Shown here piece by piece: positions 3-16,342 of a DNA stretch of 64,000 nt. The notes under the pieces are model-generated. The model did no database searches. It saw only the letters and a program-made list of their open reading frames with translations, and was not told the origin of the DNA. The translations under genes were made by a program, and so were the position numbers. How positions within the stretch are numbered: position 1 is the stretch's first letter; every line of letters begins with the position of its first letter. Origin of the DNA: Oceanobacter mangrovi (GTDB lineage: Bacteria; Pseudomonadota; Gammaproteobacteria; Pseudomonadales; Oceanobacteraceae); the NCBI RefSeq assembly GCF_019740315.1, contig NZ_JAHXZR010000002.1, positions 1 to 64,000 on the forward strand, read 5' to 3'.

Positions 3-119
3 GATATCGGCCGTTATCTGATGGGATTTTACAACCAGCAACGGCCACATACTGCGAATGATGGAATCAGTCCTCACGCCGCAGAAGAAAAACTTAAAAC
101 CGTGTCCGGAATCAGTTGA
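3..119 (+). mobile_element. IS3-family transposase (OrfB/integrase core) C-terminal fragment, truncated by the window edge
   Basis: Frame 3 translates to DIGRYLMGFYNQQRPHTANDGISPHAAEEKLKTVSGIS*, the conserved extreme C-terminus of IS3-family OrfB (YNxxRPHxxLGxxSPxxF motif). No start codon in the window. Confidence 0.5.
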
Positions 120-361
120 CCACTACACATGCCTTGTCAGAAGCGTTTGCGGAATCCAGCAGATTTATGTGTCAGAGAGCTGACTGTCAAGCACCTGAAG
201 GCTCTCTTGGCGGCATCACATCTGGGCTGTACCGATTGAACACCAGCGTGTTGGAAGGCATGAACAACAATATAAAGGTGATCAAACGGATGGCGTATGG
301 ACACCGGGATAACGCTTACTTCTTTTTGAAAATCAAAGCGGCGTTTCCCGGTAAAGTGTGA
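116..361 (+). mobile_element. ISL3-family transposase C-terminal fragment (remnant)
   Basis: The 81-aa ORF ends ...GITSGLYRLNTSVLEGMNNNIKVIKRMAYGHRDNAYFFLKIKAAFPG, matching the ISL3 transposase C-terminal signature (EGxNNKIKxIKRxAYGxR...F.LKI). It is far too short for an intact transposase. It overlaps the end of the IS3 fragment, which suggests nested or degraded insertions. Confidence 0.5.
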
Positions 362-388: not shown

Positions 389-2008
389 TCAGGAGCGTTG
401 GAGATCACTCCATTTGAGGCTGAATTTGGCGAGATACTTTTGTAGGCGACTGGAATCATTACTGGAGTTCTTGTGCTGACGGCTGACGTCAAACAACTTG
501 CGACCGGCTGCGGCTAACGAACCGGACTGTTGGCAGATCTTCAGAACAGCAGCCAGTTGCAGCTGATCGAACTGGTCGATTTGCTGAATGGCTTGCTGGT
601 CCAGATACTGACCGAGAATCTCCCCGGTCTGTTGTGCTGCATGGTCTTGCCCTGAATCTTTGGCGCCGTTCCAGCTGCGTTGTAGGCGATCTATTTCCAG
701 CTGTACATCGAAAGTAGTGATGCGGGCAGACTCAGCCAGGGTACAGAGGCGAGTCACGGCGGCCCTCAAATCACGGAAGTTACCGCGCCAAAGGCTTTGC
801 GGTGACTGGGCAAAGCTCAGGAACTGATCTCGGGCTTCCTTATTGAAAAGCACCCTGCGACCATTTTTCTGGCTGTACTGTTCCAGTTCAAAGTTCAGGT
901 TGGCAGGAATGTCTTCGGGGCGTTCGTTCAGTGCGGGAAGTTGCCAGTTCCATAAATTAATGCGCGCCAGCAAATCCTCACGAAACAGCCCTTCGCCAAT
1001 GCGTTGCAGCAGGTTGCGGTTGGTGCCAGCAATTAGCTGAAAATCACTGTGCTGTGGTTGATCGCTGCCGACCGGGTAAAAGCTTTTATGCTCTAACGCA
1101 TGCAGCAACATGGCTTGTTCTTCCTGACCAAGTTCGCCAATTTCATCCAGAAACAGTATGCCTCTGTCGGCTCTTTTCAGAAAGCCTTCGCGACTGCTGT
1201 GGGCGCCTGTAAAAGCGCCTCGGGTGTGACCAAACAAGGCGGCCATGGCGTTGTCACCGTGCAGGGTGGCGCAGTTGACGCTGACCAGTTCGCCCTTGAC
1301 CTGCCCCCTGATTTTCTTCAGCTGATAAATACGGGAAGCCAGTTGGGATTTGCCTGCGCCGGTCGGGCCGGTCAACAGAATTGGCTCTGCCGAGCGAATA
1401 GCGACCTTTTCGATTTCGGCAATCATGCGGTTGAAACGGGGGTTAGCGGTATTGATGCCCTGTTTCAGAAAGTCGCTACCTTGCTGGTGTTCGGTTTCAA
1501 AGCGGCTGGCGAGCTGGTCGTAGCGTGAGAGGTCGAGATCAATGGTTTGTACCCGACCAATCGATTTTACCGGGTTACTGGAATCCGGTGAGCTCTGTAT
1601 CAGTTTGCCAGGGAAGTGGCGGCTTTCTGTGAGCAGAAAGCCGCAGATCTGGGCGACGTGTGTGCCGGTGGTGATGTGAAACAGGTAGTCGTTGTTGTCT
1701 GTATCAAAGGTGTGGTTTTGGCACCAGTCAAACAAACCAGCGTAGACCTCTTCAAAATCCCACGGATCGCGGAAGTTGATCTGCTGCGGAATCACTCTGG
1801 TCTCAGGCGAAACGGATTCAATATCAGCACTGATTCGGCCTGCCAGGCGCTCGTAGTCGCTGTCGTGCAGTAGATATAGCTCATCAATTTGCAGATGTGG
1901 CTGGCTGCACAGGGAAATATTTGGTCGCCAGCGAGCCCAGCGATCATTTCTCTTGCCACTGAAGTCGAGTTGGGTGCCCAGAAAACTCAAAACGATGGTC
2001 TTTTTCAT
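389..2008 (-). CDS. rtcR: Sigma-54-dependent transcriptional activator RtcR (N-terminal CARF domain, AAA+ sigma54-interaction domain, C-terminal HTH)
   Basis: Colinear similarity to E. coli RtcR from the N-terminus (VLSFLGTQLDFSGKR...WRPNISLC...SVSPETRVI...NFRDPWDFEEVYAGLFDWC...YLFHITTGTHVAQICGFLL...LIQSSP). Walker A GPTGAGKS and GAFTGA sigma54-contact motif are present. The gene is divergent from rtcB/rtcA. Start chosen at the MKKTIV codon (2006-2008). Confidence 0.85.
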   Translation of the reverse strand: MKKTIVLSFLGTQLDFSGKRNDRWARWRPNISLCSQPHLQIDELYLLHDSDYERLAGRISADIESVSPETRVIPQQINFRDPWDFEEVYAGLFDWCQNHTFDTDNNDYLFHITTGTHVAQICGFLLTESRHFPGKLIQSSPDSSNPVKSIGRVQTIDLDLSRYDQLASRFETEHQQGSDFLKQGINTANPRFNRMIAEIEKVAIRSAEPILLTGPTGAGKSQLASRIYQLKKIRGQVKGELVSVNCATLHGDNAMAALFGHTRGAFTGAHSSREGFLKRADRGILFLDEIGELGQEEQAMLLHALEHKSFYPVGSDQPQHSDFQLIAGTNRNLLQRIGEGLFREDLLARINLWNWQLPALNERPEDIPANLNFELEQYSQKNGRRVLFNKEARDQFLSFAQSPQSLWRGNFRDLRAAVTRLCTLAESARITTFDVQLEIDRLQRSWNGAKDSGQDHAAQQTGEILGQYLDQQAIQQIDQFDQLQLAAVLKICQQSGSLAAAGRKLFDVSRQHKNSSNDSSRLQKYLAKFSLKWSDLQRS

Positions 2009-2164
2009 TCTGTCCTGGATCCTATCCATAAATATAAATACCTATCTTTAAGGATATATCCGGGCTATAGGAAATACTGCCTGTTTTATCCAGAAAATAA
2101 TCCCGATTTAAATAAATATAATAAAAACAATGACTTAAAATTAATTTTCAGGCCATTTCAAAAA

Positions 2165-2180
2165 CTGGCACGCGACTTGG
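2165..2180 (+). promoter_or_regulatory. Candidate sigma-54 (-24/-12) promoter for the leader-SPFH-rtcB-rtcA operon
   Basis: TGGCACGcgacTTGGaa has a perfect -24 element (TGGCACG) and correct spacing, but the -12 element reads TTGG rather than TTGC. It is positioned divergently from rtcR, as expected for an RtcR-dependent promoter. Confidence 0.4.
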
Positions 2181-2191
2181 AATTACAAGGG

Positions 2192-2480
2192 TGTAACTCA
2201 GGGTGTGATTCTGAATCACCCCGGTGCGCCAGGAATACCTTTGCGTATGCCGTTACAAACACATGAATCGGATAGCTCTATGGCTGAGCCCGGTCGAGAG
2301 GCCGGAGGTGCAGGTTCGATCCCTGCTCCGATAACCAGGAAGCTCGACAAAACGCGGGATTCGAGCCCCCGCTCCTGACTAAATACCCAAGCGAAAGAGG
2401 GGGTGCGAAGACAGTCTCTGAGGATGTAACGGGCGTAAGAATAACGAATAACACAGGCCGGATTGCCGCTGTTATTCCGG
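2192..2480 (+). ncRNA. Structured 5' leader / candidate Y-RNA-like (YrlA-like) ncRNA containing a tRNA-like cloverleaf, ending at a hairpin plus pyrimidine-rich tract
   Basis: Positions 2266-2337 fold as a 72-nt cloverleaf. Acceptor ATCGGA/TCCGAT; D-arm GCTC-tatGGct-GAGC with GG in the loop; T-arm GCAGG-TTCGATC-CCTGC with canonical T-loop; 3' tail AACCA. The 'anticodon' arm is non-canonical (CCGG-8 nt loop-CCGG). A second T-arm-like motif (GCGGG-ATTCGAGCC-CCCGC) lies at about 2361-2380. A bulged hairpin AATAACAcAG...CTGTTATT followed by a T/C-rich tract at about 2437-2490 could be the 3' end or an attenuator. Confidence 0.4.
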
Positions 2481-2541
2481 TTCTTCGCCCCTTCTTCCAC
2501 ACGCTGATTTTCCCACTCTCGATGTTTGAAAAGGACATTTT

Positions 2542-3744
2542 ATGAAATTCAAAACAATCCGGAACGTTACCGATAGCCAGCGTGAGCTGGTCTACAAAGA
2601 CCGCCAGCTGGTACAAATCCTGACCGCCGGACGGCATTCATTTTTTGACTGGAAACAGTCCCTGACTTTTCACAGCTTTGATGTGAACGACATTTACCTG
2701 AGTGATCCGGACACCCTTCGCTGGTACGCCCGTTCGAAGCTGCTGCAACAGCATGTTCACTTCTGGCAATTACAGCCTGACCAGCTGGGGCTGCTGTATC
2801 TCGACGGCATGTTGCGTGGCGTCGTGGCACCGGGTGAACAGGTTTATATCTGGAAGGATGTTGGCAAGGTGGAATTGAAAACCATCGACTTTGAACAACA
2901 GTTGCAGCTCGATAACGGTCTGCTACGCGAAATCAATCGGGTGGGGGCCAACCAGTCCAAACGGTTGATTCGCAGCGAAGCTTCGGTGGCGGTGAAGCCG
3001 GTGACTGAATTCACGGTGGCCAGCTGGCATGTGGGTTTGTTGTATCAGGACGGCGAGTTTGTACGGCAGTTGGCGCCGGGACGTTATGGCTTCTGGCAAT
3101 TCAATCATGAGTATGAGGTTCGTCAGTTTGACCTGCGCGCCACCATGCTGGACATCAGTGGTCAGGAGATTCTCAGCAAGGATCGGGTAAGTCTGCGAAT
3201 CAACCTGTCAGCGACGGTGAAAACCATCGACGTCACGCTGTTGGCTGCCAGTGTCGACCAGCCCCATGAGTACATCTACAAACTGCTGCAGTTGGCATTG
3301 CGGGAAGCCGTTGGTACCAAGACCCTGGACGAACTGCTGCTCGACAAACTGTACGTCAACGAGACAGTGCGCGACATCGTGCGTGAGTCGTTGACAGCCA
3401 TCGGTATCGAGCTGGTAGGCGTGGGCGTCAAGGACATCATTTTGCCCGGTGAGATGAAGGCGATCCTGAATCAGGTGGTCGAAGCCCAGAAAGCGGCAGA
3501 AGCCAATGTGATCAAGCGACGGGAAGAAACCGCCGCCACTCGCAGCCTGCACAATACCGCCAAAGTGATGGATAACAACCCGATTTTGCTGCGCCTGAAG
3601 GAACTGGAAGCACTTGAAAAAGTGGCTGAAAAAATCGACAGCCTGACGGTACATAACGGCCTTGATGGCTTGATGAAAGGATTGGTGACGATGCAGCCAG
3701 CTCAAATCGCTGAGGCTCAGAAACAAGGAAAAAACCATGTGTAA
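2542..3744 (+). CDS. SPFH/band-7 (stomatin/prohibitin-like, slipin family) protein, first ORF of the rtc operon
   Basis: 400 aa. The SPFH core is visible (DRVSLRINLSATVKTIDV...; EAQKAAEANVIKRREETAATR coiled-coil tail). An RBS AAAAGGA precedes the ATG. The stop overlaps the rtcB start by 8 nt. Confidence 0.75.
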   Translation: MKFKTIRNVTDSQRELVYKDRQLVQILTAGRHSFFDWKQSLTFHSFDVNDIYLSDPDTLRWYARSKLLQQHVHFWQLQPDQLGLLYLDGMLRGVVAPGEQVYIWKDVGKVELKTIDFEQQLQLDNGLLREINRVGANQSKRLIRSEASVAVKPVTEFTVASWHVGLLYQDGEFVRQLAPGRYGFWQFNHEYEVRQFDLRATMLDISGQEILSKDRVSLRINLSATVKTIDVTLLAASVDQPHEYIYKLLQLALREAVGTKTLDELLLDKLYVNETVRDIVRESLTAIGIELVGVGVKDIILPGEMKAILNQVVEAQKAAEANVIKRREETAATRSLHNTAKVMDNNPILLRLKELEALEKVAEKIDSLTVHNGLDGLMKGLVTMQPAQIAEAQKQGKNHV

Positions 3745-4966
3745 CCACGATAACTATCAAGTGTTCGATCAGCTTGGCCGAGTGCCTGTCAAAGCTTGGG
3801 TTAACGGCGTGCCGTTTGAAAATGAGGCTCGCAAGCAGTTGGCCAACATTGCCAGTATGGATCTGGTGCATTCCCACATAGCGGTGATGCCTGACGTACA
3901 TTTGGGTAAAGGTGCGACCATTGGCAGCGTGATTCCATCGGTCAACGCGGTGATTCCTGCGGCGGTAGGCGTGGACATCGGCTGCGGTATGGTCGCCAAC
4001 AAAACCAGCCTGAAAGCCCGTGACCTGCCTGACAGCCTGAAGGAAATCCGCCACGCTTTCGAAGCGGCTGTACCGCATGGGCGTTCTTCCGGGCGTGGTC
4101 GCCGCGATACCGGTGCCTGGCACGATTTGCCTGAGCTGGTGGTGGCCGGCTGGAGCACGCTGGCGCAGCGTTTTGAGAAAATTTGCAGCAAGCATCCAGC
4201 GATCCGCCAAACCAACAACATCAATCACCTCGGCACCATGGGGACAGGTAATCATTTCCTGGAGCTGTGCCTGGATACGGAGGGTAGTGTTTGGCTGATG
4301 TTGCACTCTGGCAGTCGTGGGGTGGGTAACCGTATTGGCACCTACTTCATTGAACTGGCCCGTAAGGAAATGGAGCGCCACCAGATTCAGCTGCCGGACA
4401 TGGATCTGGCCTATCTTGAAGAAGGCAGTGAGTATTTTGATGACTACGTGGAAGCGGTGGAGTGGGCTCAGGATTACGCTGCTATCAACCGCGACATCAT
4501 GATGAAAAATGCCATTGCTGCCTTGCAGAAAGTTCTGGGACGGCCGTTCGAGAGCGCGAAATTAGCGGTGAATTGTCACCATAACTACGTTTCGCGTGAG
4601 CACCACTTTGGCAAGGATTGCTACGTTACCCGCAAGGGTGCGGTGCGCGCGCAGCAAGGTGAAATGGGGATTATTCCGGGCAGCATGGGAGCACGATCCT
4701 ACATCGTTCGAGGGTTGGGCAATCCGCAAAGCTTCAACAGTTGCAGTCACGGAGCCGGGCGTGTGATGTCACGCACCAAAGCCAAAAAGGTCTACTCAAT
4801 TGCCGATCAGGAGGCTGCAACCGCCGGAGTCGAGTGCCGCAAGGACGAAGGCATGATTGATGAAATCCCGCATGCCTACAAGGACATCGACAAGGTGATG
4901 GCAGCCCAGCAGGATCTGGTCGAGGTGGTCCATACCCTGAAACAAATTGTCTGCGTGAAAGGGTAA
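3737..4966 (+). CDS. rtcB: RNA-splicing ligase RtcB (3'-phosphate/5'-OH RNA ligase)
   Basis: Near-identical motifs to E. coli RtcB: HIAVMPDVHLGKGATIGSVIP...AAVGVDIGCGM, HSGSRGVGN, NCHHNY. Confidence 0.9.
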   Translation: MCNHDNYQVFDQLGRVPVKAWVNGVPFENEARKQLANIASMDLVHSHIAVMPDVHLGKGATIGSVIPSVNAVIPAAVGVDIGCGMVANKTSLKARDLPDSLKEIRHAFEAAVPHGRSSGRGRRDTGAWHDLPELVVAGWSTLAQRFEKICSKHPAIRQTNNINHLGTMGTGNHFLELCLDTEGSVWLMLHSGSRGVGNRIGTYFIELARKEMERHQIQLPDMDLAYLEEGSEYFDDYVEAVEWAQDYAAINRDIMMKNAIAALQKVLGRPFESAKLAVNCHHNYVSREHHFGKDCYVTRKGAVRAQQGEMGIIPGSMGARSYIVRGLGNPQSFNSCSHGAGRVMSRTKAKKVYSIADQEAATAGVECRKDEGMIDEIPHAYKDIDKVMAAQQDLVEVVHTLKQIVCVKG

Positions 4967-4972
4967 GGAACG

Positions 4973-6004
4973 ATGGTTGTGACATCTTCATGGATGCAGG
5001 TGGACGGTGCCATGGGCGAGGGCGGTGGTCAGGTGCTGCGCACCTCGCTGACGTTGGCGTTGTTGCAGCAGCGGCCACTGCGGATAACCAACATTCGTGC
5101 CGGTCGCAGCAAACCCGGCTTGATGCGTCAGCATCTGGCCTGTGCTCGCGCAGCAGCAGCTATTTGTGCTGGTACGCTGCGGGGGGATGAGCCGGGCTCG
5201 GACTGGCTTGAGTTTGAACCTGCGCCAGTCAAGGGCGGGCTTTACGAATTCGCCATCAGTACCGCAGGCAGCACGGCGCTGGTCTGCCAGACCGTACTGC
5301 TGCCACTGGTACTGGCGTCGGAGCCGTCGACGGCTGAGTTTCGGGGTGGTACTCACAATGGCTTGTCGCCGTCAGTGGATTTTCTGCGGCAATCGTTTTT
5401 GCCGTTGCTGCAAACGATGGGGGTAACCACCCGGTTAAGCCTGCATCGACATGGCTTCATGCCCGCGGGTGGCGGTCATTGGACATTGGAAATCGTGCCC
5501 GTGCAGCAGCTTGTGCCCCTGCAACTGGAGCACGTAGTTCCAGCCGTTGCTGACCCGGTCGCTGTTGTTTGTCAGAATCAGTTACCGCGCAACATTGCCG
5601 AGCGTCAGCTGACCGAGCTGAAGCGCCGGTTGGGAATGGATCTGGTCACAACCGTGGAATTTGTCGATGCCCTCGGTGCTGGCAATATGCTGGCGCTTGA
5701 AGTGGCTTTGCCGGAATTTGTCCAACGCTTTGAACTGCCTGCCGCAATGGGCAGTAGTGCAGAAAAGATCGCCCGCAGGCTGGCCGGGTTTTATCGAAAA
5801 TGGCAGCACAGCAATGTCGCGGTGGACGAATATCTGGCCGACCAACTGTTGTTACCAATTGCATTGGCCGGTGCCGGTCGCTTTACCACCACGGCACCGA
5901 GCCTGCATACCCGTACCAATATCGAGCTGATCGAACAGCTGACTGGCCAACGTTTCCAACAGCAGCAACTCGATGCATCGCGCTGGCTGGTGTCATTGTG
6001 CTGA
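4973..6004 (+). CDS. rtcA: RNA 3'-terminal phosphate cyclase RtcA
   Basis: The N-terminal DGAMGEGGGQVLRTSLTLALL motif is typical of RtcA. Length 343 aa. It lies immediately downstream of rtcB. Confidence 0.85.
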   Translation: MVVTSSWMQVDGAMGEGGGQVLRTSLTLALLQQRPLRITNIRAGRSKPGLMRQHLACARAAAAICAGTLRGDEPGSDWLEFEPAPVKGGLYEFAISTAGSTALVCQTVLLPLVLASEPSTAEFRGGTHNGLSPSVDFLRQSFLPLLQTMGVTTRLSLHRHGFMPAGGGHWTLEIVPVQQLVPLQLEHVVPAVADPVAVVCQNQLPRNIAERQLTELKRRLGMDLVTTVEFVDALGAGNMLALEVALPEFVQRFELPAAMGSSAEKIARRLAGFYRKWQHSNVAVDEYLADQLLLPIALAGAGRFTTTAPSLHTRTNIELIEQLTGQRFQQQQLDASRWLVSLC

Positions 6005-6013
6005 TCACCCGGC

Positions 6014-8092
6014 TTATGCCGGGCTTTCCATCGGATGAATTACTCTTACTACTGGCAGGATTGTTGCCATGTCCAATAACTGAGTGACACACCAGACGGC
6101 ACGCAGCGAATCGAGCGGTGCGGCGGATTGCAGCAGCCGGGCCAGGGCTTTCAGGCCCATATCCTCGCAGCGCCGCGCCAGTTCGGCATGGGCGGCGGCG
6201 CCCGGTGGCTGGTCGGCGAGCTGATCGAGGCAATGAATCAGCAGCTGTTGCAGACGGCTGGTTTGCCCGTTTTGGGTTGGCTGGCTGTTGAGTTTGGCCA
6301 GCCAGCAGCTGAAGCGGGTGGGCCGGTAGCGGTTTTCCAGCGTATCGAAGTAGAGGTTGAACCAGAGAGCAGGTTTTTTCTCGCCTGCTGGCGCTGTGGT
6401 CTGTTCCTGGGTCTCTTGCTCTTTATTCTGAGCTGAGGGCTCCTTGCCCTGAGCTGAAGGCTCTTTGTCCTGCGCTGAGGGCTCTGAATAGCGACTTTTC
6501 GGTGGTTTCGGCAGAACGCTGGCTGGCAGCCGTAGGGTACAGGGCGTCAGCCGCACGCGTACATGGTTGCGCTCAATGCGGGCGACGATTAGTTCCGGCA
6601 AATGCTGTTCCAGCGCCATCAGGTTGATGATTGCCTGTTTTGTCAGGGGGGAGCTGGTCAGCTCAAACCCCAGCATATGGCCGTCTCGATCGGCGTACTG
6701 CACGGTCAGGGTCTGGCTGGCTTCATCAAATTGAGTGCTGTGGCAGGCACTGGGCCGGAAGCAGAGGAATTCTGCCTGCCAGTCGATCTCATCGACATGA
6801 TCAATGCTGACCGGCTCGGCCGGCGCTAATGGCTGATCGGAATTCACAGAGGCGGGCGGTTGGGCATAAACCCGGGTGGCCTGCATCCGTCGCAGCCGGT
6901 TCCAGCCGTTCAGCTCGGCATTGTCGAGGGCCATGATTTTGCCCATCCAGGCCATGCCGGACGGCGCACCGTCGAGCCAGCCGCCGCTTTGCCAGGTCTG
7001 CTCAAAGCTCAGCGCCGGGCTGGCACTGGCCCGGCTCTCGGCCAGCGTCACAAACTGTCCTTGCGGGTCTTGCAGAATCAGGGTGACGCCATGGGCACCG
7101 CTGTCGTTGCGCCATGGATAGCCGCCCAGTCCGAACAGCTGTTGCGGAGCCTGTTGCAGCGGCTTGAGTTGCTCCGGCTGGACCTGCTCCAGACTGACCA
7201 GCAGTTTGGCCATGCTGACCAGAATGGCGCTGCGATCACGAATCCCCCGACCGCTGACGTAACGCTCCAGCCCGCTGAGCAGCTGCTTCAGCGCGGCGCT
7301 GTTCATGCCCAGCCGCTGCATCGGCATCTCCATGGCTTCCAGTTCCAGCAAGGCGGTAGGGCGCAGCTGGTCGATGCCCTGCATCAGCATGTGTTGCAGA
7401 TGATGGCGAATCCGCTCGCCCAGCCACTGTTGTGATTGTTGGCTGATGCCGGCCTGTTGCTGCTGTTCTGCGCCAAGCCAGTCCGGCCATTCAAACCTGA
7501 GCTGTTGCTGCTGGCAGTACAGCCACACCGCCAGCAAGCGCATCGGCTCGCTTTGTGAGTGACAGATCAGATCATCCAGACCGCGCGCCTGGCGAAAGTG
7601 AATCTCATCCTGATGGATCTGTACCCGCACCATGCCAGAGTCGTTTTGAGTCTCGATGCTGTAGGCCCAGCGTTTTTGGCTTTGCTTCCATAACTGGCGG
7701 ACCTTCGCCTTGCCCGCAGATTTCAGCAGGGCGGGGATATCGAGGTCAGGTGCCCAGGGTTGGCAGCCAGCTTTTTGGACTTCAGCGTCTGACGTCTGAC
7801 GTCCGACGTCCGACCCTTGCCCTTCAGTATCCGGCGTCAGACCTCCAGCGTCAGACGTCTGATTTAAGGTCTCCGCCACATACAAACAGACGGCGATGAT
7901 GTGTTTGCACAGTCCGGAGGCGGCGCAGTCGCACTGGCTGAGGTTGGGGTTGTCGCGGTTGAACTGGCCGTGCTGGCCTTCAAATTCAAAGCGGTCGCCA
8001 TCCGCCAGAATCGGGCTGGCCTTGTCCAGTGCCTTGCGGGCGCGGCGCACCAGTCCGGGGCTGCTGAGGCTGGCGAGCAAATCGTCGTTCAT
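6014..8092 (-). CDS. SWIM zinc-finger domain protein (YehQ-like), last gene of the yeh-like cluster
   Basis: N-terminal CDCAASGLCKHIIAVCLY has the SWIM CxC...CxH signature. 692 aa. Its start overlaps the stop of the upstream VWA gene (ATGA at 8089-8092). Contains internal peptide repeats (KEPSAQx)3. Confidence 0.7.
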   Translation of the reverse strand: MNDDLLASLSSPGLVRRARKALDKASPILADGDRFEFEGQHGQFNRDNPNLSQCDCAASGLCKHIIAVCLYVAETLNQTSDAGGLTPDTEGQGSDVGRQTSDAEVQKAGCQPWAPDLDIPALLKSAGKAKVRQLWKQSQKRWAYSIETQNDSGMVRVQIHQDEIHFRQARGLDDLICHSQSEPMRLLAVWLYCQQQQLRFEWPDWLGAEQQQQAGISQQSQQWLGERIRHHLQHMLMQGIDQLRPTALLELEAMEMPMQRLGMNSAALKQLLSGLERYVSGRGIRDRSAILVSMAKLLVSLEQVQPEQLKPLQQAPQQLFGLGGYPWRNDSGAHGVTLILQDPQGQFVTLAESRASASPALSFEQTWQSGGWLDGAPSGMAWMGKIMALDNAELNGWNRLRRMQATRVYAQPPASVNSDQPLAPAEPVSIDHVDEIDWQAEFLCFRPSACHSTQFDEASQTLTVQYADRDGHMLGFELTSSPLTKQAIINLMALEQHLPELIVARIERNHVRVRLTPCTLRLPASVLPKPPKSRYSEPSAQDKEPSAQGKEPSAQNKEQETQEQTTAPAGEKKPALWFNLYFDTLENRYRPTRFSCWLAKLNSQPTQNGQTSRLQQLLIHCLDQLADQPPGAAAHAELARRCEDMGLKALARLLQSAAPLDSLRAVWCVTQLLDMATILPVVRVIHPMESPA

Positions 8093-9198
8093 TTTCTGAA
8101 TCCCATAACACGCGCCAGCCAGTCGGCAAACTGGTCCGGGCTGAGGGCGTTGATGTCCATGCCCAGTTGTTGCAGCTGGCTGGTGGACTGGCTGTTGTAA
8201 AAGGGCGTCGAGTCGCTGGTCATGGCGGTCATGCCGAGCATTTTGATGCCGCTGTCGACCATTTGCGCGGCCTGGCCGAGCATGCCTTGCAGCGGGCCAC
8301 CTTCACAGAAGTCGGAGACGGTGGCGACCACGGTTCTCTGAGGGGCGCTGACCAGTTGCTCGCAGTATTGCCAGGCCTGACCGATCAGGGTGCCGCCACC
8401 GAGCTGGGTGCGCAGCATCACGCTGACCGGATCGTCGGCGTGTTCGCTGAGGTCGACCACCCGGGTATCGAACACCACCAGAGACAGTTTCACGGTGGGC
8501 AGGCGGGTCAGAATCCCGGCAATCACCGCCGAATAGATCATCGACTCGGCCATCGAACCGGATTGGTCGATGCACAGAATCACTCGCCACGGCAGGCTGG
8601 TTTGCTGGCGGGCGTTGAAGTACACCCGCTCGTAGCGCAGCCGTTCGCCGTCGAAGTTTTTCAGGTTTTTGCGAATGGTGGTTTGCCAGTCGAGGTTGGC
8701 CAGCCGTTTGACCGGACTGTGGGCTTGCCGGTTGAGACGGCCGGTCAGGCAGTGGCTAAACACCGGCATCAGCTTGCGCAGCAGCTCCTCGACCACGCCA
8801 CGGATAATCCGCTCGACCTGGTCCCTCAGGGCCGGGTTGTGGTGGGCGTTGAGTTTCATCAGCTGTTTGAGCAGGTCGACGCTGGGGGTGATCTTGTCGA
8901 GCACACCGGGCTGCTTGAGCACATCGGTAAGGCCGTAGTGATCCACCGCGTCCTGTTGCAGCTTGTCGTTGACGCTGCGCGGAAACAGCTTTTCGGCCTG
9001 TTCAAGCCATTGGATGATCTGCGGCTCGCCGCTCTCCAGACCGCCCGACAAATCAAAACCGCGTTCCACCAGACCTTGCTGATAAAGGGTTTGCAGGACC
9101 TGATCCTGACCTTGCTGTTGCGAGCTGAGGTTGGCGTTGAGGTCGTCGGCGTAGCGGCCCAGTACCAGCCGCCAGCGTTGTTTCAGTAGCTCAGCCAT
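8089..9198 (-). CDS. von Willebrand factor A (VWA) domain protein (YehP-like)
   Basis: MIDAS motif in ILCIDQSGSM. Start is probably the internal MAELLKQRW codon (about 9198), since the longest ORF overlaps the upstream gene by about 110 nt. This is the classic partner of a MoxR AAA+ ATPase. Confidence 0.75.
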   Translation of the reverse strand: MAELLKQRWRLVLGRYADDLNANLSSQQQGQDQVLQTLYQQGLVERGFDLSGGLESGEPQIIQWLEQAEKLFPRSVNDKLQQDAVDHYGLTDVLKQPGVLDKITPSVDLLKQLMKLNAHHNPALRDQVERIIRGVVEELLRKLMPVFSHCLTGRLNRQAHSPVKRLANLDWQTTIRKNLKNFDGERLRYERVYFNARQQTSLPWRVILCIDQSGSMAESMIYSAVIAGILTRLPTVKLSLVVFDTRVVDLSEHADDPVSVMLRTQLGGGTLIGQAWQYCEQLVSAPQRTVVATVSDFCEGGPLQGMLGQAAQMVDSGIKMLGMTAMTSDSTPFYNSQSTSQLQQLGMDINALSPDQFADWLARVMGFRK

Positions 9199-11483
9199 GC
9201 GTTCAGTCCTAGCTGGTCGAGGCGTTGTTGCAGTTGCTGTTCGAGCACCATGCCCTGTTCGACGTCTTGCTCGGAGAGGCCTTTTTTCAGCCATTCGAGC
9301 GGGTCGTCCCAGTCGTTGAGGGTACGCAGCTGGCGGGTAATGCCGTCGATCTCGCGGGCGTCCATGCGGCTGAACAGTTTGCGCAGGGCAGGCAGCTGCT
9401 CGGTGAAGTGGTCGTCATCCAGTTGTTCCAGCCAGTGGTTGAGCAACTCCAGCAGCCCGGACGACTGGCGCAACCAGTGTGGCACCACGGTGATGAGGGC
9501 TTCGAGGATGGCATAACGCTCACTGAAGCCCTGACTGTGAACCTGTTGCAGCAGCGCGCTGGCGTCACCGTCGGTCAGTTCCACTTCCAGCGCTTGCAGG
9601 GCAAACCACATCGGCAGCCGGTGGCGGTTGTGGCAGATCAGCCAGTGCAGGCGGTCTTGCCAGGGCTGGTGCAGTTCGTCCTCGTGCTGGCGGGCGATGC
9701 CTTGCAGGGCAACCAGCAGTTCCAGTGCTTCGTCCATATCGAGCTGGTTAAGTGCCGCCAGATGAAAGCCCAGTTGCTGCCACAGTGCCCGGTACAGCTT
9801 ATCCAGCGGCTGGTCGGCAAACAGCGGATGGCGCGACAGCTGGAAGATTTGCATAAAGCTCTGCGACAGCGTCTGGATGTCGGTGCAGTCGTGAATTTGC
9901 TGATACAGGGGTTGCTGCGGCAGATGCTGCTGCAGACCCATTTGCATGGCCTGTTGCAGCAGAGTCACGCTCTGGCCCAGGCTCTGCTGGGGCCGATTCA
10001 GCAGCTGGATGATGATGAGGCGTTCCAGCGTGCTGCCGTTACGGCCCAGTTTGGCCAGCCGTACTTCCACCGATGGCGTCCACTGATAGCTCCAGGATTC
10101 GCGTTTCTTGCTGGCGCTAAAGCTGTAGAAACTGCCTGGTCCACCTGAAGGGGAGGCAAATCCGGCTTCGACAAAGGCCAGCCGACACAGCAGCTGGCGG
10201 CGTTTGGCGGCGGATTCGTTCATATCCAGCAGATCAAAATGGCACTGGCCAGCGGGGCCGACTTTCAGGCGGCTTGCACGGACCTGTTGCAGAACTTCAT
10301 CGACCAGCGGCAGGCCGGGCAGACCTTCCGGCAGCTCGCCAATGGCATCGCCGCGCAGAATCTGTTGCCAGGGCTCCAGCGCATCGGCGGTGAATTGCTG
10401 TTTGACCAGACAGCTGGTCAGCGAGTCGAGCAGATCATTGCTGCCGGGGCGGTCGAGCTGGCGCAGCACGCACAGCTGTTGCAGGTGGTGGATAACGTTC
10501 TGGCGCTGCACCAGAGTCAGGCCGAGTTGCTTGAGCAGAAACAGTATCCATTCTTCGGCATCGCTCTGTTTCTTCTTCAGCCGGTCGGCCAGTTGCCAGC
10601 GACTGAAGGCAGGCCAGGGCATACCGGCGGCGTAGCCGGAGGCCGGATGCAGCAGCTCGTCGCTGTAGCGTACCAGCACCGCAGCCTGACGCGGGGCGGC
10701 GGCATCGGTCTGGTCCAGCGCACTGGCCGGAATCGGCGCGCTTTCGCTTGAAAAGTCGAACAGCGCCGGGGTATGGAAGCCGCCGGTCAGCACCGCGATG
10801 CGCTCAACCTGCTGGCGGGCGTCGCGAATATGAGCGCGCATGCACTGTTCGCGGGGCAGGTCACCAAGCTGTTGCAGGGACTCGTCATCGTGACAGGCAC
10901 GGCTGGCGGCGCAGTACAGCATGACCTGCAAAAAGAAGTCGTCGGCGCTGGCAAAGTCGCGGCATTCAAACAGCCGTTGCCAGACTTCGTCCTGCGAGCG
11001 GCAGCCCAGTTTCTGTTGCAGCTGGCGGGTGTATTCGGAGCCGAGCAGCCGGCTGTCGCTCCAGCGATTGCCGCCTTCATCACTGTCGCCCTCGTTGCTG
11101 TCTACCTCGTTACTGTTATTGGGGGCGCGGTCTGGCTGGTCGAGGTCGATAAACCAGACCGGCACCTGATGAGCGGCGGCCCAGCGAATGGCCTGCCACT
11201 CCGGGCTGTTTTCGGCCATCGGGTAGTAGCTCTGGTGCTGATACAGCGCCAGTGGTGGCCGCACCTCGTCGCCTTGCAGCAAGGGCAGCTGGTCGACAAA
11301 GGCCATCGGCGCTTCGATCAGTACCATTTGCGGTTGCTGGCGGTCGAGCTGCTCGATGGTCATGGCGGCACAGGCCGGGCTGTGATGGCGTACCGGCAGC
11401 CAGCTCAGGCCGTCGTCACGCAAAAACGCTGCCCGGCAGTCGACCAGGTACTGGCCAATATCCGGTTCGGCTATTTCATCCAC
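9183..11483 (-). CDS. Large conserved hypothetical protein (YehM-like, DUF5682-type)
   Basis: 766 aa. Sits between the AAA+ and VWA genes with start/stop overlaps on both sides. Size and position match E. coli YehM. Contains an acidic low-complexity insert (NSNEVDSNEGDSDEGG). Confidence 0.55.
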   Translation of the reverse strand: MDEIAEPDIGQYLVDCRAAFLRDDGLSWLPVRHHSPACAAMTIEQLDRQQPQMVLIEAPMAFVDQLPLLQGDEVRPPLALYQHQSYYPMAENSPEWQAIRWAAAHQVPVWFIDLDQPDRAPNNSNEVDSNEGDSDEGGNRWSDSRLLGSEYTRQLQQKLGCRSQDEVWQRLFECRDFASADDFFLQVMLYCAASRACHDDESLQQLGDLPREQCMRAHIRDARQQVERIAVLTGGFHTPALFDFSSESAPIPASALDQTDAAAPRQAAVLVRYSDELLHPASGYAAGMPWPAFSRWQLADRLKKKQSDAEEWILFLLKQLGLTLVQRQNVIHHLQQLCVLRQLDRPGSNDLLDSLTSCLVKQQFTADALEPWQQILRGDAIGELPEGLPGLPLVDEVLQQVRASRLKVGPAGQCHFDLLDMNESAAKRRQLLCRLAFVEAGFASPSGGPGSFYSFSASKKRESWSYQWTPSVEVRLAKLGRNGSTLERLIIIQLLNRPQQSLGQSVTLLQQAMQMGLQQHLPQQPLYQQIHDCTDIQTLSQSFMQIFQLSRHPLFADQPLDKLYRALWQQLGFHLAALNQLDMDEALELLVALQGIARQHEDELHQPWQDRLHWLICHNRHRLPMWFALQALEVELTDGDASALLQQVHSQGFSERYAILEALITVVPHWLRQSSGLLELLNHWLEQLDDDHFTEQLPALRKLFSRMDAREIDGITRQLRTLNDWDDPLEWLKKGLSEQDVEQGMVLEQQLQQRLDQLGLNAWLSY

Positions 11484-12523
11484 AGTGCTTTACCTGCCGT
11501 GAAGAATTCTTTCCAGCTGGAACGCTCACGCACCACCACATCCAGATAGTGGGCCAGCTTCTTGATGTCGTCCGGTTTGTCCTTGATCAGGGTGCCGTGC
11601 ATTTGCTGGACCAGCTGGGCGGTGTTCATCGGCTGCTGCCAGTACAGGCTGTGGAGGGCGCAGGCATGGACGATGTTCACTGCTTCGGCAGTGGACAGCG
11701 TGGCTTCCAGCGCTTGTGGGCCGGTACTGTGGCGCAGCTCGTGGAACACCTGCACCAGCAGTTCGACCAGATCGGCGTCGAGCGGGTGTTCTGTGCCACT
11801 GTCGGCCAGCCGCTGCTGCACCTGGCTCATGATCAGGGTTTTCTCCATGGCTGCATCGTTAATCACCGGCACGGTTTCGAAATTGAAGCGGCGCTTGAGG
11901 GCGCTGGACATGTCGTTAACACCACGGTCGAGCAGGTTGGCGGTGGCGATGACGTTAAAGCCGGGTTTGGCCTGAATCGCAATGCCCAGTTCGGGAATGG
12001 TGAGGGTTTTCTCCGACATCACTGAAATCAGTACGTCCTGGATTTCCTGCGGACAGCGGGTGATTTCTTCCAGGCGCACCAGCTTGCCCTGTTCCATGGC
12101 CTCGTACACCGGGCTTTTCAGTAAGGCTTCCAGGCTCGGCCCGCCGGACAGTAGCAGGGCGAAGTTCCAGCTGTATTTGATCTGTTCTTCAGTGGTACCG
12201 GCGGTGCCCTGAATCAGCAATTCGCTATGGCCGCTAATGGCAGCGGTCAGCAGTTCCGACAGCATGGATTTGGCGGTGCCTGGTTCACCGACCAGCATCA
12301 AACCGTTGTTGCCCATCAGGCTGACAATAGCGCGCTCAACCAGCGCGTCGTCACCATAGTATTTGCGACTGATGCCATGCACGGCATCGCCGCAGATAAA
12401 GCGGCGCACCGCAGCGGCTGACAGCGCCCAGCCCGGCGGCCGCGGGCTGCTGTCGTGTTCGCGGAGGGTGTCCAGTTCCTGTTGGTAGCGCTGTTCGGCG
12501 CGTTCTCGAATGACGTTTACCAC
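11471..12523 (-). CDS. MoxR-family AAA+ ATPase (YehL-like, AAA_5)
   Basis: Walker A GEPGTAKS, Walker B and sensor region, 350 aa. Start overlaps the stop of the upstream giant gene (12517-12523). Confidence 0.85.
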   Translation of the reverse strand: MVNVIRERAEQRYQQELDTLREHDSSPRPPGWALSAAAVRRFICGDAVHGISRKYYGDDALVERAIVSLMGNNGLMLVGEPGTAKSMLSELLTAAISGHSELLIQGTAGTTEEQIKYSWNFALLLSGGPSLEALLKSPVYEAMEQGKLVRLEEITRCPQEIQDVLISVMSEKTLTIPELGIAIQAKPGFNVIATANLLDRGVNDMSSALKRRFNFETVPVINDAAMEKTLIMSQVQQRLADSGTEHPLDADLVELLVQVFHELRHSTGPQALEATLSTAEAVNIVHACALHSLYWQQPMNTAQLVQQMHGTLIKDKPDDIKKLAHYLDVVVRERSSWKEFFTAGKALWMK

Positions 12524-15500: not shown

Positions 15501-16176
15501 TGGTCTGGTCAGTTTGCAGTTGTTTGCCTAACAGGCGTGCCAGTGTGGCACGGGCACTGACGTGCAGATCTTGCAGCGCTTGCAGCCAGTCCGGGTCGCA
15601 GGCAAGGGTCAGCCAGTCGGTGGTGTTTTGAAGACGCTGATGTAATTTGCAGTAATTTAAATAGTAGCTGTAGGTATTTTCCAGCAGCCAGGTATCCAGC
15701 AACATCGGGTCTTGCTGGTATTCCTGCAGGGTAGACACCAGTACCTCACGGTCGATGGCATCGTAATGGCCCGCCAACAGAGCCAGCATTTTGAGAGCCC
15801 AGCCATCCGGGCGGTTGTTCATATGACGGGAGTAACGATAGTCGTAGTACCTACCTGCGTGCATTACCCGCCCCAAACGCACCCATATAGCTGGTTGAGC
15901 TCCGCTTTCGGAGGCGAGAAATTCTTTCAGGGCTTGCTCGACCTTGCTGTGCTGTTTGGTCAACTCATCCGGGAAACCGCCACGACTGCTGCCGGGGTAG
16001 AGGGATTGATTATGGCTGGCCAGATCATCCAAAGCCGTTGCCGGTGAGCCGGTCAGAATGTAGCTGGCAATGGCCTGGCCAAGTCCGGTGTGAAAATACT
16101 CGATGGCGGTGCAGGCAGTGTTGAGCAGGGTAATACTTTCTTGTTGGCTGGGCGCTGGAGTCAGGGTAGCTGACAT
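12517..16176 (-). CDS. Giant DUF4132-family protein (YehI/MolR-like), first gene of the cluster
   Basis: About 1219 aa from the internal start MSATLTPAP (16174-16176). That start has an AAGGAT RBS. The longest ORF (to 16392) would run through the REP-like element. Size and position match E. coli YehI (1210 aa). Confidence 0.6.
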   Translation of the reverse strand: MSATLTPAPSQQESITLLNTACTAIEYFHTGLGQAIASYILTGSPATALDDLASHNQSLYPGSSRGGFPDELTKQHSKVEQALKEFLASESGAQPAIWVRLGRVMHAGRYYDYRYSRHMNNRPDGWALKMLALLAGHYDAIDREVLVSTLQEYQQDPMLLDTWLLENTYSYYLNYCKLHQRLQNTTDWLTLACDPDWLQALQDLHVSARATLARLLGKQLQTDQTTNSEAFIEPLLKLAADSAKGVRQATLLEIHRLPGQPLVEYLQQQYPKAKASTRLHWVAAAAEHPDCKPLLEQWLETETAPKALEALQRLANHQQPDDDTPFEWQIPAASPIEISKEIPAHWFGLLQQSRQQRIRYTESSIENQQRYLEQSESPRPYEVQYLEKAKQSLVKLRSITDADLQQVIDCLANAEARPANPQLDTIFRNANLIQQPDTNLRHLFRFLGTHTLSWGFLRHQPYFARLVNELSDFRQLMAIAAEEVVESQSIETLLFASNGDIPEYLLELKIWPYLAEHESLIDDGLKGQYTATGHLDSNDIIMSSLRLLQYFPQLPARWSNALYDLCLHESRYVRQQAFRTVEALGIDLSRVLEMLASREKALRADIIQWLGRLGLEESQPALLQALQKEKDAPTQALIIDALQRSGYDISEFLTLKLLEKEANAGLRKAPPKSMDWFPREQLPAVTFSDGSAVPEPLLFWWIVLAVKLKQPEGNALLDSYLTLLDNNSNQRLAHFLLSSFIDQDTRCPTDEEAHEHAEQGKSALYSRYQQWAKSSWGAEYANKTTDDAYRELYRNRKVQLFGSAIKEKGLLALTKRGDSQQLLGLIRPFMKEHYKRRSQIEAMLAAVGDSDDPVMIQFVLGIARRYRTASVQSLARQLIDNIATRNDWSADELADRTIQTAGLEQLHGPTEFEYGSRTLSIQLDDSLKLQLLSTDGKLIKALPQPRQDDDKEAISDTKKWFSNSKKELKQVVEQQQARLYDAMITDREWHSGDWLQYLHQHPVMNRLLQRLLWQVEIDGEWVSFRPTEEDEFINLDDDEVSIPYNSRIRLLSAVALAEADMADIKAWQQHLKDYKVTPLFDQLRSAQIAFKQGQRKIDHYHGYLTDAFTVRGVMTKAGYERGQAEDAGWFGEYTKTFDRFGLKVIFTFSGNCLPEEQVSAAIYSMQVVKLSNRSYWHQEDDYIPLAELPANLLNAIALDYEAVAAKATADPDWEKKLPW

Positions 16177-16247
16177 GATGAATCCTTGAACGATGAAAAT
16201 GGCAAGGTGGCGACTGTGATCAGTGGCTGTTGATGAAGAACCTAGGC

Positions 16248-16334
16248 TGCTGTCCCGACATATCATGCCCCTACGCAAGACGTGTAAATTCGCTTGCGTA
16301 GGGGAAAGGCATACCTTGTCGGTAGCCTTGCCAG
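16248..16334. repeat. REP-like triple-hairpin intergenic element, copy A (inverted relative to copies B and C)
   Basis: The reverse complement aligns with copy B: CTGGCAAGGC...CCCCTACGCAAG-loop-CTTGCGTAGGGG...GTCCCGACATaTC. Intergenic, between the Coq4-like stop and the yehI-like start. Confidence 0.6.
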
Positions 16335-16342
16335 ACGCTGGC

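What the first reader, a model, noticed from the sequence alone, without database searches (positions are those of the whole stretch)
389..6004. rtc RNA-repair locus with an SPFH/band-7 gene in the position usually occupied by Rsr, preceded by a tRNA-like structured leader
rtcR (CARF-sigma54 activator) is divergent from an operon of SPFH protein, RtcB and RtcA, with overlapping stop/start between the SPFH gene and rtcB. In enterobacteria the equivalent position carries rsr and Y-RNA-like (yrlA/yrlB) genes. Here there is no Ro60 orthologue. A membrane-scaffold SPFH protein is co-translated with the RNA ligase instead, and the roughly 350-nt leader contains a tRNA-like cloverleaf. Together this suggests an RNA-damage sensing/repair module with a possibly membrane-associated and tRNA-mimic component. 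CARF-containing RtcR is thought to sense an RNA-derived ligand, so the leader RNA itself could be relevant. The locus sits directly beside IS remnants.
Basis: partly seen in the sequence, partly recalled or inferred. Interest (0 to 1): 0.65.

Follow-up and report, generated by a model that had tools for sequence, protein, structure and literature searches.

The report
Known Band-7/tRNA-like RtcB repair operon
This is an ordinary member of an RNA-repair operon type predicted in 2016, in which a soluble SPFH/Band-7 protein and a non-decoding tRNA look-alike sit beside the RtcB RNA ligase; what may be new is that the same untranslated leader holds two more conserved RNA structures.

Summary
In this Oceanobacter mangrovi window, rtcR (389-2029, minus strand) faces a sigma-54-type promoter, a ~350-nt leader, then Band-7/SPFH, rtcB and rtcA. 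The Band-7 stop and rtcB start overlap by 8 nt. The leader holds a real tRNA-like cloverleaf at 2266-2337 (Rfam tRNA 34.3 bits, threshold 29). Its anticodon arm is a closed GAGA tetraloop hairpin, so it cannot decode.

The arrangement is not new. Burroughs & Aravind (NAR 2016), as cited by Wang et al. [quoted passage not shown] In 80 related loci, 73 have such an element just upstream of the Band-7 gene on the same strand.

The membrane reading is not supported. The protein has no transmembrane segment. Its model has N-terminal beta repeats, an SPFH core and a long helix, and it aligns over the greatest length to major vault protein.

Possibly new: two further conserved leader structures. One is a three-way junction at the 5' end of the leader (2192-2257). 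The other is a ~125-nt hairpin (2397-2520) with strong covariation. I could not read the 2016 paper to check whether it reports them.

The parts
389..2029 (-). rtcR: CARF-domain, sigma-54-dependent transcriptional activator
   Evidence: Pfam RtcR E 1.2e-77 and Sigma54_activat E 6e-46. NCBIfam NF038308 equivalog, 771 bits against a cut-off of 650.
2166..2181 (+). Sigma-54-type promoter TGGCACgcgacTTGGA. The -12 element is TTGG rather than the TTGC consensus.
   Evidence: Pattern scan. The same TGGCAC-N5-TTGGA variant occurs at the equivalent place in L003, L005, L018, L021, L022, L028 and L029. No sigma-70-like site was found in 1900-6400. Promoter function is inferred, not shown.
2192..2257 (+). 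Three-way-junction element at the 5' end of the leader: closing stem UGUAAC/GUUACA, hairpin 1, invariant CGGUGC ... GUAUNCC, hairpin 2
   Evidence: MFE -23 kcal/mol, z -2.7. A strict pattern finds the same motif in 26 of 81 loci; where a promoter-like site was identifiable (window, L011, L018, L021, L028) it lies directly after it. CGGTGC and GTAT.CC are invariant, and hairpin 1 covaries at pairs 19/33 and 21/31 (A5).
2266..2337 (+). Band-7-associated tRNA-like element (b7a-tRNA type). Acceptor stem of 6 bp plus an A:A mismatch; D arm with GG; anticodon arm replaced by CCGGUC-GAGA-GGCCGG; canonical T arm GCAGGUUCGAUCCCUGC; encoded A-CCA at 2334-2337.
   Evidence: Rfam tRNA 34.3 bits, gathering score 29. 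ARAGORN tRNA-???. R1 50 bits, the only hit in 64 kb. Cloverleaf is the MFE fold. Homologous elements lie upstream of the Band-7 gene in 73 of 80 loci.
2338..2379 (+). Degenerate module with a T-arm-like hairpin (GCGGG-AUUCGAGCC-CCCGC, 2354-2372). Possibly a decayed second tRNA-like unit.
   Evidence: Not significant on its own: R1 2.9 bits, fold z -0.07. Included only because relatives carry a second tRNA-like unit or a 'small hairpin + T arm' module at this position.
2397..2520 (+). Long imperfect hairpin of about 125 nt with a conserved apex (window GGC-CGGAUU-GCC; relatives AGC-NGGAU-GCU)
   Evidence: MFE -49.7 kcal/mol, z -4.34, 0 of 200 shuffles as stable. Model R2, built without the window, scores it 24.5 bits, E about 1e-4, the best hit in 12 kb. 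In the sequence-anchored alignment A4, 71% of cells pair against 32-42% in the slid controls, and 37 of 42 pairs change on both sides. In the model-fitted alignment A7, 89.7% pair against 30-42%.
2531..2535 (+). Shine-Dalgarno AAGGA, 6 nt before the Band-7 ATG
   Evidence: Read from the sequence.
2542..3744 (+). Band-7/SPFH ('slipin family') protein, 400 aa, with no membrane anchor
   Evidence: Pfam Band_7 E 7e-26. Identical to WP_221794479.1 of Oceanobacter mangrovi. No transmembrane segment. AlphaFold2 model, mean pLDDT 81: three beta units, an SPFH core and a helix at 303-364. Structure matches to stomatin, HflK and MVP.
3737..4966 (+). rtcB RNA ligase (joins 3'-phosphate or 2',3'-cyclic phosphate ends to 5'-OH ends)
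   Evidence: Pfam RtcB E 4.5e-130. Identical to WP_221794481.1. 8-nt overlap with the Band-7 stop codon.
4973..6004 (+). rtcA RNA 3'-terminal phosphate cyclase
   Evidence: Pfam RTC E 3.9e-75. NCBIfam NF003246, 364 bits against a cut-off of 352.

Best explanation
The locus is a member of the RtcR/sigma-54-controlled RNA-repair operons of the Band-7/b7a-tRNA type.

Shown here: the gene content and order; a sigma-54-type promoter motif; a 350-nt ORF-free leader holding a non-decoding tRNA-like cloverleaf; conservation of that element next to Band-7 genes in other genomes; two more conserved leader structures; and a Band-7 protein with no membrane anchor.

Inferred by orthology: RNA damage activates RtcR through its CARF domain, and RtcR then drives sigma-54 transcription from about position 2192. 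In Salmonella the reported signal is tRNA halves with 2',3'-cyclic phosphate ends.

Inferred from tRNA likeness: the acceptor/T-arm minihelix, the D-loop GG, the T loop and the encoded ACCA make the element a likely substrate for tRNA-processing enzymes such as RNase P. Processing would release a stable RNA of about 72 nt. It would also leave the Band-7-rtcB-rtcA mRNA starting near the long hairpin.

Inferred by analogy with Ro60/Y RNA and with SPFH cages: the soluble Band-7 protein oligomerises through its C-terminal helix. Together with the tRNA-like RNA, and possibly the hairpin, it would form a ribonucleoprotein that acts as scaffold or cofactor for RtcB. RtcA makes 2',3'-cyclic phosphate ends and RtcB seals them to 5'-OH ends.
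For: Gene identities.

tRNA-like element.

Prior description of RtcB + Band-7 + b7a-tRNA: bioRxiv 10.1101/312249, citing Burroughs & Aravind 2016. Band-7 in the P. aeruginosa rtc locus: PMC13086221 and PMC8619066.

Conservation. ARAGORN finds 1-4 same-strand tRNA-like elements within 900 nt upstream of the Band-7 gene in 55 of 80 loci. Model R1 finds them in 73 of 80. All 7 negative loci still carry a GGTTCGAnnCC T loop there. The element stays with the Band-7 gene when that gene lies after rtcB/rtcA or without rtcB.

Non-decoding. 'Anticodons' differ freely between close relatives, loops of 6 or 8 nt are common, and stop anticodons occur. In the window the arm is a GAGA tetraloop hairpin.

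Cloverleaf covariation: 92.6% of cells pair against 33-45% in slid controls.

Band-7 protein: soluble, with a fold that fits cage formation.

RtcR ligand literature: PMC7790460, PMC10159003, PMC9650030.
Against: No expression, processing or binding data exist for this organism. According to the 2018 preprint, none existed for any b7a-tRNA, and I found nothing newer in the library.

A P. aeruginosa deletion of the orthologous SPFH gene (paFlo8) showed no phenotype in growth, virulence-factor, motility, biofilm or oxidative-stress assays (PMC13086221).

The cloverleaf covariation comes from sequences chosen by a cloverleaf finder, so it is partly circular. The -12 promoter element departs from consensus (TTGG instead of TTGC). 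The Band-7-RNA interaction rests on gene adjacency alone.
Confidence: 0.75

Rival explanations
1. The leader is purely cis-acting. The tRNA-like unit serves only as an RNase P/RNase E processing signal that trims the sigma-54 transcript. The long hairpin then protects the new 5' end of the Band-7-rtcBA mRNA or tunes translation. No trans-acting ncRNA or RNP is involved.
For: All modules lie on the coding strand between the promoter and the Shine-Dalgarno sequence, with no terminator between them. The hairpin ends about 10 nt before the SD. The position of the hairpin just upstream of the Band-7 start is conserved.
Against: The tRNA-like element keeps full tertiary-interaction signatures: D-loop GG and invariant GGTTC.A..CC. 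That is more than a processing site needs. It is duplicated 2-4 times in many loci. It follows the Band-7 gene rather than the promoter, including in loci where that gene lies downstream of rtcB/rtcA. The analogous YrlA is a stable trans-acting RNA (PMC4201824).
Confidence: 0.15
2. The element is a decoy or sensor substrate. Ribotoxins that cut tRNAs also cut the tRNA-like RNA. The fragments then feed back on the RtcR CARF domain, or they titrate the toxin.
For: In Salmonella, RtcR is reported to respond to 5' tRNA halves with cyclic phosphate ends (PMC7790460, PMC10159003). The element is tRNA-shaped and is made only when the system is on.
Against: The anticodon loop is the target of the classical anticodon nucleases (general knowledge). 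It is the least conserved part of the family and is absent in the window. This idea gives no role to the Band-7 gene, although it almost always has such an element just upstream.
Confidence: 0.07
3. It is a decaying ordinary tRNA gene or an integration-site remnant, left by mobile DNA next to the ISL3 fragment, and has no function.
For: The window copy scores lower than most relatives: 50 bits with R1 against mostly 60-80. It has an A:A mismatch at the top of the acceptor stem. An ISL3 remnant lies 2 kb away.
Against: The same-strand position just upstream of the Band-7 gene is conserved in 73 of 80 loci spanning several orders of Gamma- and Betaproteobacteria. The D and T arms are intact. The ISL3 fragment lies on the far side of rtcR.
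Confidence: 0.03

Closest known systems
[quoted passage not shown] 2018, bioRxiv 10.1101/312249)
   Same: A Band-7/SPFH gene next to rtcB, with a predicted ncRNA that strongly resembles a tRNA. It was proposed to be functionally redundant with Rsr/YrlA. The window matches on gene content, on position and strand of the RNA, and on the cloverleaf.
   Different: Nothing essential. The window copy is a divergent member: the proteins are about 60% identical to the nearest relatives found, the anticodon arm is a GAGA tetraloop, and there is one full unit rather than the 2-3 tandem units of many Alteromonadales. I could not read the 2016 paper, so I cannot say whether the 5' junction element and the long hairpin are described there.
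Salmonella Typhimurium rtcR / rsr-yrlB-yrlA-rtcB-rtcA operon (Ro60 orthologue plus Y RNAs)
   Same: A divergent RtcR. The operon carries rtcBA plus a putative RNA-binding scaffold protein and a tRNA-mimicking ncRNA (PMC4201824, PMC7790460, 10.1101/312249).
   Different: There is no TROVE/Ro60 gene. No Y-RNA-type family was matched in Rfam. The RNA lies upstream of the scaffold gene rather than between rsr and rtcB. It is a full cloverleaf, not a tRNA-like domain mounted on a Ro-binding stem.
Pseudomonas aeruginosa rtc locus with PA4582 / PA14_60630 (PaFlo8)
   Same: An SPFH gene embedded in an rtcR-rtcB-rtcA locus (PMC13086221, PMC8619066).
   Different: Those papers treat the protein as a flotillin-like membrane factor or as 'unknown function' and do not mention an RNA. 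The P. aeruginosa locus was not examined here.
Escherichia coli rtcR / rtcBA
   Same: The same regulator and the same two enzymes. A sigma-54 promoter is established for E. coli; here only a promoter-like motif was found.
   Different: From my own knowledge, E. coli has no scaffold gene and no structured tRNA-like leader. This was not tested here.
Eukaryotic vault (major vault protein, vault RNA and the TROVE protein TEP1)

Membership tests
Rtc RNA-repair operon (RtcR-RtcB-RtcA) | RtcR with an N-terminal CARF-type RtcR domain and a sigma-54 AAA+ domain, divergent from the operon | tested here: met
   Pfam RtcR and Sigma54_activat; NF038308 at 771 bits, cut-off 650. Minus strand, 512 nt from the Band-7 ATG.
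Rtc RNA-repair operon (RtcR-RtcB-RtcA) | RtcB ligase and RtcA cyclase in one same-strand gene cluster | tested here: met
   Pfam RtcB E 4.5e-130; RTC E 3.9e-75. Gaps between genes are -8 nt and 6 nt.
Rtc RNA-repair operon (RtcR-RtcB-RtcA) | Sigma-54 (-24 GG / -12 GC) promoter upstream of the operon | tested here: inconclusive
   TGGCAC-N5-TTGGA at 2166-2181. The -24 element is perfect; the -12 is TTGG, not TTGC. The same variant recurs in 7 relatives. Activity was not tested.
[quoted passage not shown] | Lies next to a Band-7/SPFH gene that is linked to an RNA ligase gene | tested here: met
   205 nt separate the element's end from the Band-7 ATG, on the same strand. rtcB overlaps the Band-7 stop codon.
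[quoted passage not shown] | Strong resemblance to an authentic tRNA (cloverleaf with D and T arms) | tested here: met
   Rfam RF00005 34.3 bits, gathering score 29. Cloverleaf is the MFE fold. 50 bits with R1, built from 67 Band-7-adjacent elements including this one.
[quoted passage not shown] | Expressed as a discrete ncRNA | not testable with these tools
   There are no transcript data. The 2018 preprint says b7a-tRNA had not been validated experimentally.
Ordinary decoding tRNA | 7-nt anticodon loop with an anticodon, on a 5-bp stem | tested here: not met
   The arm is CCGGUC-GAGA-GGCCGG: 6 bp closed by a 4-nt loop in the MFE. ARAGORN reads a 6-nt loop with a 2-base 'anticodon'.
Ordinary decoding tRNA | Fully paired 7-bp acceptor stem and conserved identity across relatives | tested here: not met
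   A2266:A2333 mismatch. 'Anticodons' differ freely among close relatives and include stop anticodons and loops of the wrong size.
Bacterial Y RNA (YrlA/YrlB type) | Encoded next to an rsr (Ro60/TROVE) gene | tested here: not met
   There is no gene other than Band-7 between rtcR and rtcB. The rest of the window was not scanned for TROVE.
Bacterial Y RNA (YrlA/YrlB type) | Long stem formed by the 5' and 3' ends, carrying the Ro-binding helix, with the tRNA-like domain at its tip | tested here: not met
   The tRNA-like element closes on its own acceptor stem. The long hairpin 2397-2520 is a separate downstream unit. No Rfam family other than tRNA matched at E<=10.
Membrane-anchored SPFH scaffolds (stomatin, HflK/C, flotillin, prohibitin) | SPFH/Band-7 domain followed by a coiled-coil helix | tested here: met
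Membrane-anchored SPFH scaffolds (stomatin, HflK/C, flotillin, prohibitin) | N-terminal transmembrane helix or hydrophobic hairpin | tested here: not met
   The highest Kyte-Doolittle 19-residue mean is 1.59, and it falls inside the SPFH core. The N-terminal 150 residues are predicted beta repeats. Lipid modification or peripheral binding cannot be excluded.
Major vault protein | Tandem MVP repeats, shoulder (SPFH-like) domain and cap helix | tested here: inconclusive

The most novel reading that the evidence does not exclude
The b7a-tRNA may be only one module of a larger conserved leader RNA. Besides the cloverleaf, the leader carries two other structures. One is a three-way junction at its 5' end with invariant CGGUGC...GUAUNCC. 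The other is a ~125-nt hairpin with a conserved apical loop and extensive covariation. Some lineages instead have a 550-980-nt conserved ORF-free stretch at the place of the hairpin. If these parts have not been reported, and if they are the binding platform for the soluble, vault-like Band-7 oligomer, the system would be a bacterial cage-type RNP. It would be built like a Y RNA, with a protein-binding stem plus a tRNA-like effector module, and it would serve RNA ligation.
Probability: 0.2. Interest if true: 0.65.

Novelty: already known. Interest (0 to 1): 0.3.

Why it matters
The role of scaffold proteins and tRNA-mimicking RNAs in bacterial RNA repair is still an open question. As of the 2018 preprint the b7a-tRNA had not been shown to exist as an RNA, and I found nothing newer in the library searched. 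This locus adds no new principle.

The comparative work does give concrete handles for experiments:
- A calibrated model of the element. It finds a copy upstream of the Band-7 gene in 73 of 80 related loci.
- Evidence that the partner protein has no membrane anchor and aligns over its whole length with major vault protein, not with membrane-anchored SPFH proteins.
- Two further covarying leader structures that could be the protein-binding part.

If the Band-7 protein proves to be a soluble cage that binds these RNAs, that would connect SPFH cages, vault-like particles and Ro/Y RNA-type cofactors in RNA repair.

Tried and rejected
- Reading Burroughs & Aravind 2016: not held under its DOI, PMC id or PubMed id. 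Prior art rests on the citation in 10.1101/312249 and on my memory of the abstract.
- Y-RNA or other known RNA family in the leader: Rfam at E<=10 gives only tRNA and a chance mir-207 match.
- Second tRNA-like unit at 2338-2379: the T-arm-like hairpin is not significant (R1 2.9 bits; z -0.07). I keep it only as a possible relic.
- RNAalifold on a plain MAFFT alignment of the long hairpin recovered only the apex. The arms needed an apex-anchored structure or a covariance model.
- R2 with default filters missed the window hairpin. It was found only with filters off.
- Known RNA families in the 7 loci without an R1 hit and in the loci with very long leaders: none apart from tRNA.
- Link between the rtc locus and the neighbouring DUF4132/AAA_5/DUF5682/VWA/SWIM cluster: no homologues near any of the 80 related loci.
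- Pfam Vault-repeat or any other domain in the N-terminal 163 residues of the Band-7 protein: none at E<=10.
- Literature on experimental follow-up of the b7a-tRNA or of the rtc leader: nothing found.

Full report
WHAT IS THERE

The window comes from Oceanobacter mangrovi. The Band-7, RtcB and RtcA proteins are identical to NCBI records of that species, including WP_221794479.1 ('slipin family protein') and WP_221794481.1.

- rtcR, 389-2029, minus strand. CARF-type RtcR domain plus sigma-54 AAA+ domain; NCBIfam equivalog at 771 bits.
- Band-7/SPFH protein, 2542-3744.
- rtcB, 3737-4966.
- rtcA, 4973-6004.

The rtcB ATG overlaps the Band-7 TAA in ATGTGTAA. No Ro60/TROVE gene lies between rtcR and rtcB. 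ORF 116-361 is the C-terminal tail of an ISL3 transposase.

THE LEADER

A sigma-54-type motif, TGGCAC-N5-TTGGA, lies at 2166-2181. The same unusual -12 TTGG recurs at the equivalent place in seven related loci. No sigma-70-like site was found. Transcription should therefore start near 2192, which leaves a 350-nt leader.

At 2266-2334, Rfam's tRNA model scores 34.3 bits, above its gathering score of 29. ARAGORN reports a 'tRNA-???'. On its own the stretch folds into a cloverleaf that accounts for 63% of the ensemble. Reading the sequence gives these features:
- an acceptor stem of six pairs under an A:A mismatch;
- a D loop with GG;
- a canonical T arm, GCAGG-UUCGAUC-CCUGC;
- an encoded A-CCA at 2334-2337;
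- an 'anticodon arm' that is a six-pair stem closed by GAGA.

With no anticodon loop, the element cannot decode.

IT IS A KNOWN KIND

Wang et al. (bioRxiv 10.1101/312249) state that in certain bacteria RtcB is encoded next to a Band-7 domain protein and a predicted ncRNA. [quoted passage not shown] They cite Burroughs & Aravind 2016. They add that it was proposed to be functionally redundant with YrlA and that it had not been validated experimentally.

The SPFH gene in the P. aeruginosa rtc locus (PA4582, PaFlo8) is also on record. Its deletion gave no phenotype in standard assays. I could not open the 2016 paper itself.

MY OWN COMPARATIVE TEST

The Band-7 protein has at least 7,963 homologues at E<=1e-10. 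I fetched 80 genomic loci at 39-61% identity from Alteromonadales, Vibrionales, other Gammaproteobacteria and Betaproteobacteria.

- Gene order. Most close relatives share rtcR, then the leader, then Band-7, rtcB and rtcA. In other loci the Band-7 gene follows rtcB/rtcA or has no rtcB within 5 kb.
- ARAGORN. It finds one to four tRNA-like elements on the same strand within 900 nt upstream of the Band-7 gene in 55 of 80 loci.
- Covariance model. A model built from 67 of these elements (R1) finds them in 73 of 80. The seven negative loci still have a GGTTCGAnnCC T loop there.
- Association. The element travels with the Band-7 gene, not with the promoter.
- Sequence pattern. D and T arms are nearly invariant, while the 'anticodons' vary freely. 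Loops of 6 or 8 nt and stop anticodons occur.
- Covariation. The cloverleaf pairs in 92.6% of cells, against 33-45% when partners are slid. That set was chosen by a cloverleaf finder, so the positional conservation is the stronger argument.
- The window copy. It is the only R1 hit in 64 kb (50 bits). It is a relatively divergent member.

THE PROTEIN IS PROBABLY NOT A MEMBRANE SCAFFOLD

There is no transmembrane segment. The highest 19-residue hydropathy mean is 1.59, and it lies in a conserved SPFH strand.

The AlphaFold2 model has a mean pLDDT of 81. It shows three five-stranded beta units (residues 4-47, 72-116 and 154-197), the SPFH core, and a long helix at 303-364.

All top structural matches come from ring- or cage-forming assemblies. 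A soluble oligomeric scaffold is therefore a reasonable inference, but it is not shown.

WHAT ELSE IS IN THE LEADER

Long hairpin. Downstream of the tRNA-like unit(s), close relatives have a long imperfect hairpin with a conserved apex, GCAAGC-NGGAU-GCUCCC.
- The window equivalent is 2397-2520 (z -4.34).
- On a sequence-anchored alignment of 27 loci, one common structure pairs 71% of cells, against 32-42% for slid controls. 37 of 42 pairs change on both sides.
- A covariance model built without the window (R2) hits 15 non-seed loci, always just upstream of the Band-7 gene.
- With filters off, R2 hits window 2397-2520 at 24.5 bits, E about 1e-4, the best hit in 12 kb. Default filters missed it.
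- The model-fitted alignment pairs 89.7% of cells, against 30-42%.

5' junction element. At the 5' end of the leader, 2192-2257 folds as a three-way junction (z -2.7). It carries invariant CGGUGC and GUAUNCC. A strict pattern finds the motif in 26 of 81 loci, and one hairpin covaries.

Possible relic. The stretch 2338-2379 has a T-arm-like hairpin that is not significant on its own. It may be the remains of the second tRNA-like unit or of the 'hairpin + T arm' module seen in relatives.

None of these matches an Rfam family. I cannot tell whether they were reported in 2016.

HOW IT MOST LIKELY WORKS

By orthology, RNA damage activates RtcR. In Salmonella the signal is 5' tRNA halves ending in a 2',3'-cyclic phosphate (PMC7790460, PMC10159003). 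In E. coli, RtcA and RtcB bind the CARF domain (PMC9650030). RtcR then drives sigma-54 transcription of the leader and the three genes.

The tRNA-like unit has the acceptor/T-arm minihelix and the encoded CCA that tRNA-processing enzymes recognise. It is therefore probably excised as a stable RNA. YrlA, the analogous RNA, is modified by tRNA enzymes (PMC4201824).

The constant pairing with the Band-7 gene suggests that the two form an RNP. That RNP would assist or organise RtcB ligation, as proposed for Ro60/Y RNA. RtcA supplies the cyclic phosphate ends.

Shown: the anatomy and its conservation. Inferred: transcription start, processing, binding and function.

RIVALS

- A purely cis-acting processing and stabilising leader (0.15).
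- A decoy or feedback substrate for tRNA-cutting toxins (0.07). This is weakened because the anticodon loop is the least conserved part.
- A dead tRNA or an integration relic (0.03). This is contradicted by the conserved synteny.

VERDICT

The finding is already known as a predicted class. Interest is low to moderate. What lifts it slightly is that the class lacks experimental validation and that the leader carries extra conserved modules.

Noticed in passing
window 6014-16392 (minus strand): A five-gene cluster convergent with rtcA: DUF4132+HEAT (12517-16392), AAA_5/MoxR-like ATPase (11471-12523), DUF5682 (9183-11483), VWA CoxE-like (8089-9294) and a SWIM zinc-finger protein (6014-8092). No homologues lie next to any of the 80 related Band-7 loci, so it appears to be an unrelated neighbour of unknown function.
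   Followed up: partly
window 116-361 (+): The C-terminal 34 residues of an ISL3-family transposase (Pfam E 1.7e-7). This is an IS remnant on the far side of rtcR.
   Followed up: no
L037:4020-5000, L042:4361-5000, L044:4456-5000, L046:4354-5000: In Marinicella and Alcanivoracaceae loci, the space between the tRNA-like elements and the Band-7 gene holds a 550-980-nt stretch. It is conserved between genomes, has no ORF above about 60 aa (checked in L042) and matches no Rfam family. It may be a large ncRNA occupying the place of the 125-nt hairpin.
   Followed up: partly
L045:900-4700, L036:2700-4600, L073:380-1750, L069:3900-4740, L061:4290-4680, L068:4260-4670: Some Band-7 loci without rtcR have arrays of 3 to more than 12 ordinary-looking tRNA genes directly upstream of the b7a-tRNA/Band-7 pair on the same strand. 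Some of them have an encoded CCA.
   Followed up: no
L018, L021-L023, L025-L027, L029 (Pseudoalteromonas luteoviolacea group): These Band-7 proteins are about 540 aa, roughly 150 aa longer than the others. The extra residues are located in the N-terminal part. ARAGORN misses their tRNA-like element, but R1 finds it at 64-71 bits. In several of these loci the Band-7 and rtcB matches overlap by a few nt, as the genes do in the window.
   Followed up: no
L066, L075 (Erwinia), L016, L032, L052, L077: These loci have no full cloverleaf by R1 or Rfam. Each still has a 'small hairpin + T arm' module (GGTTCGAnnCC) upstream of the Band-7 gene. This may be a reduced or differently built tRNA mimic.
   Followed up: partly
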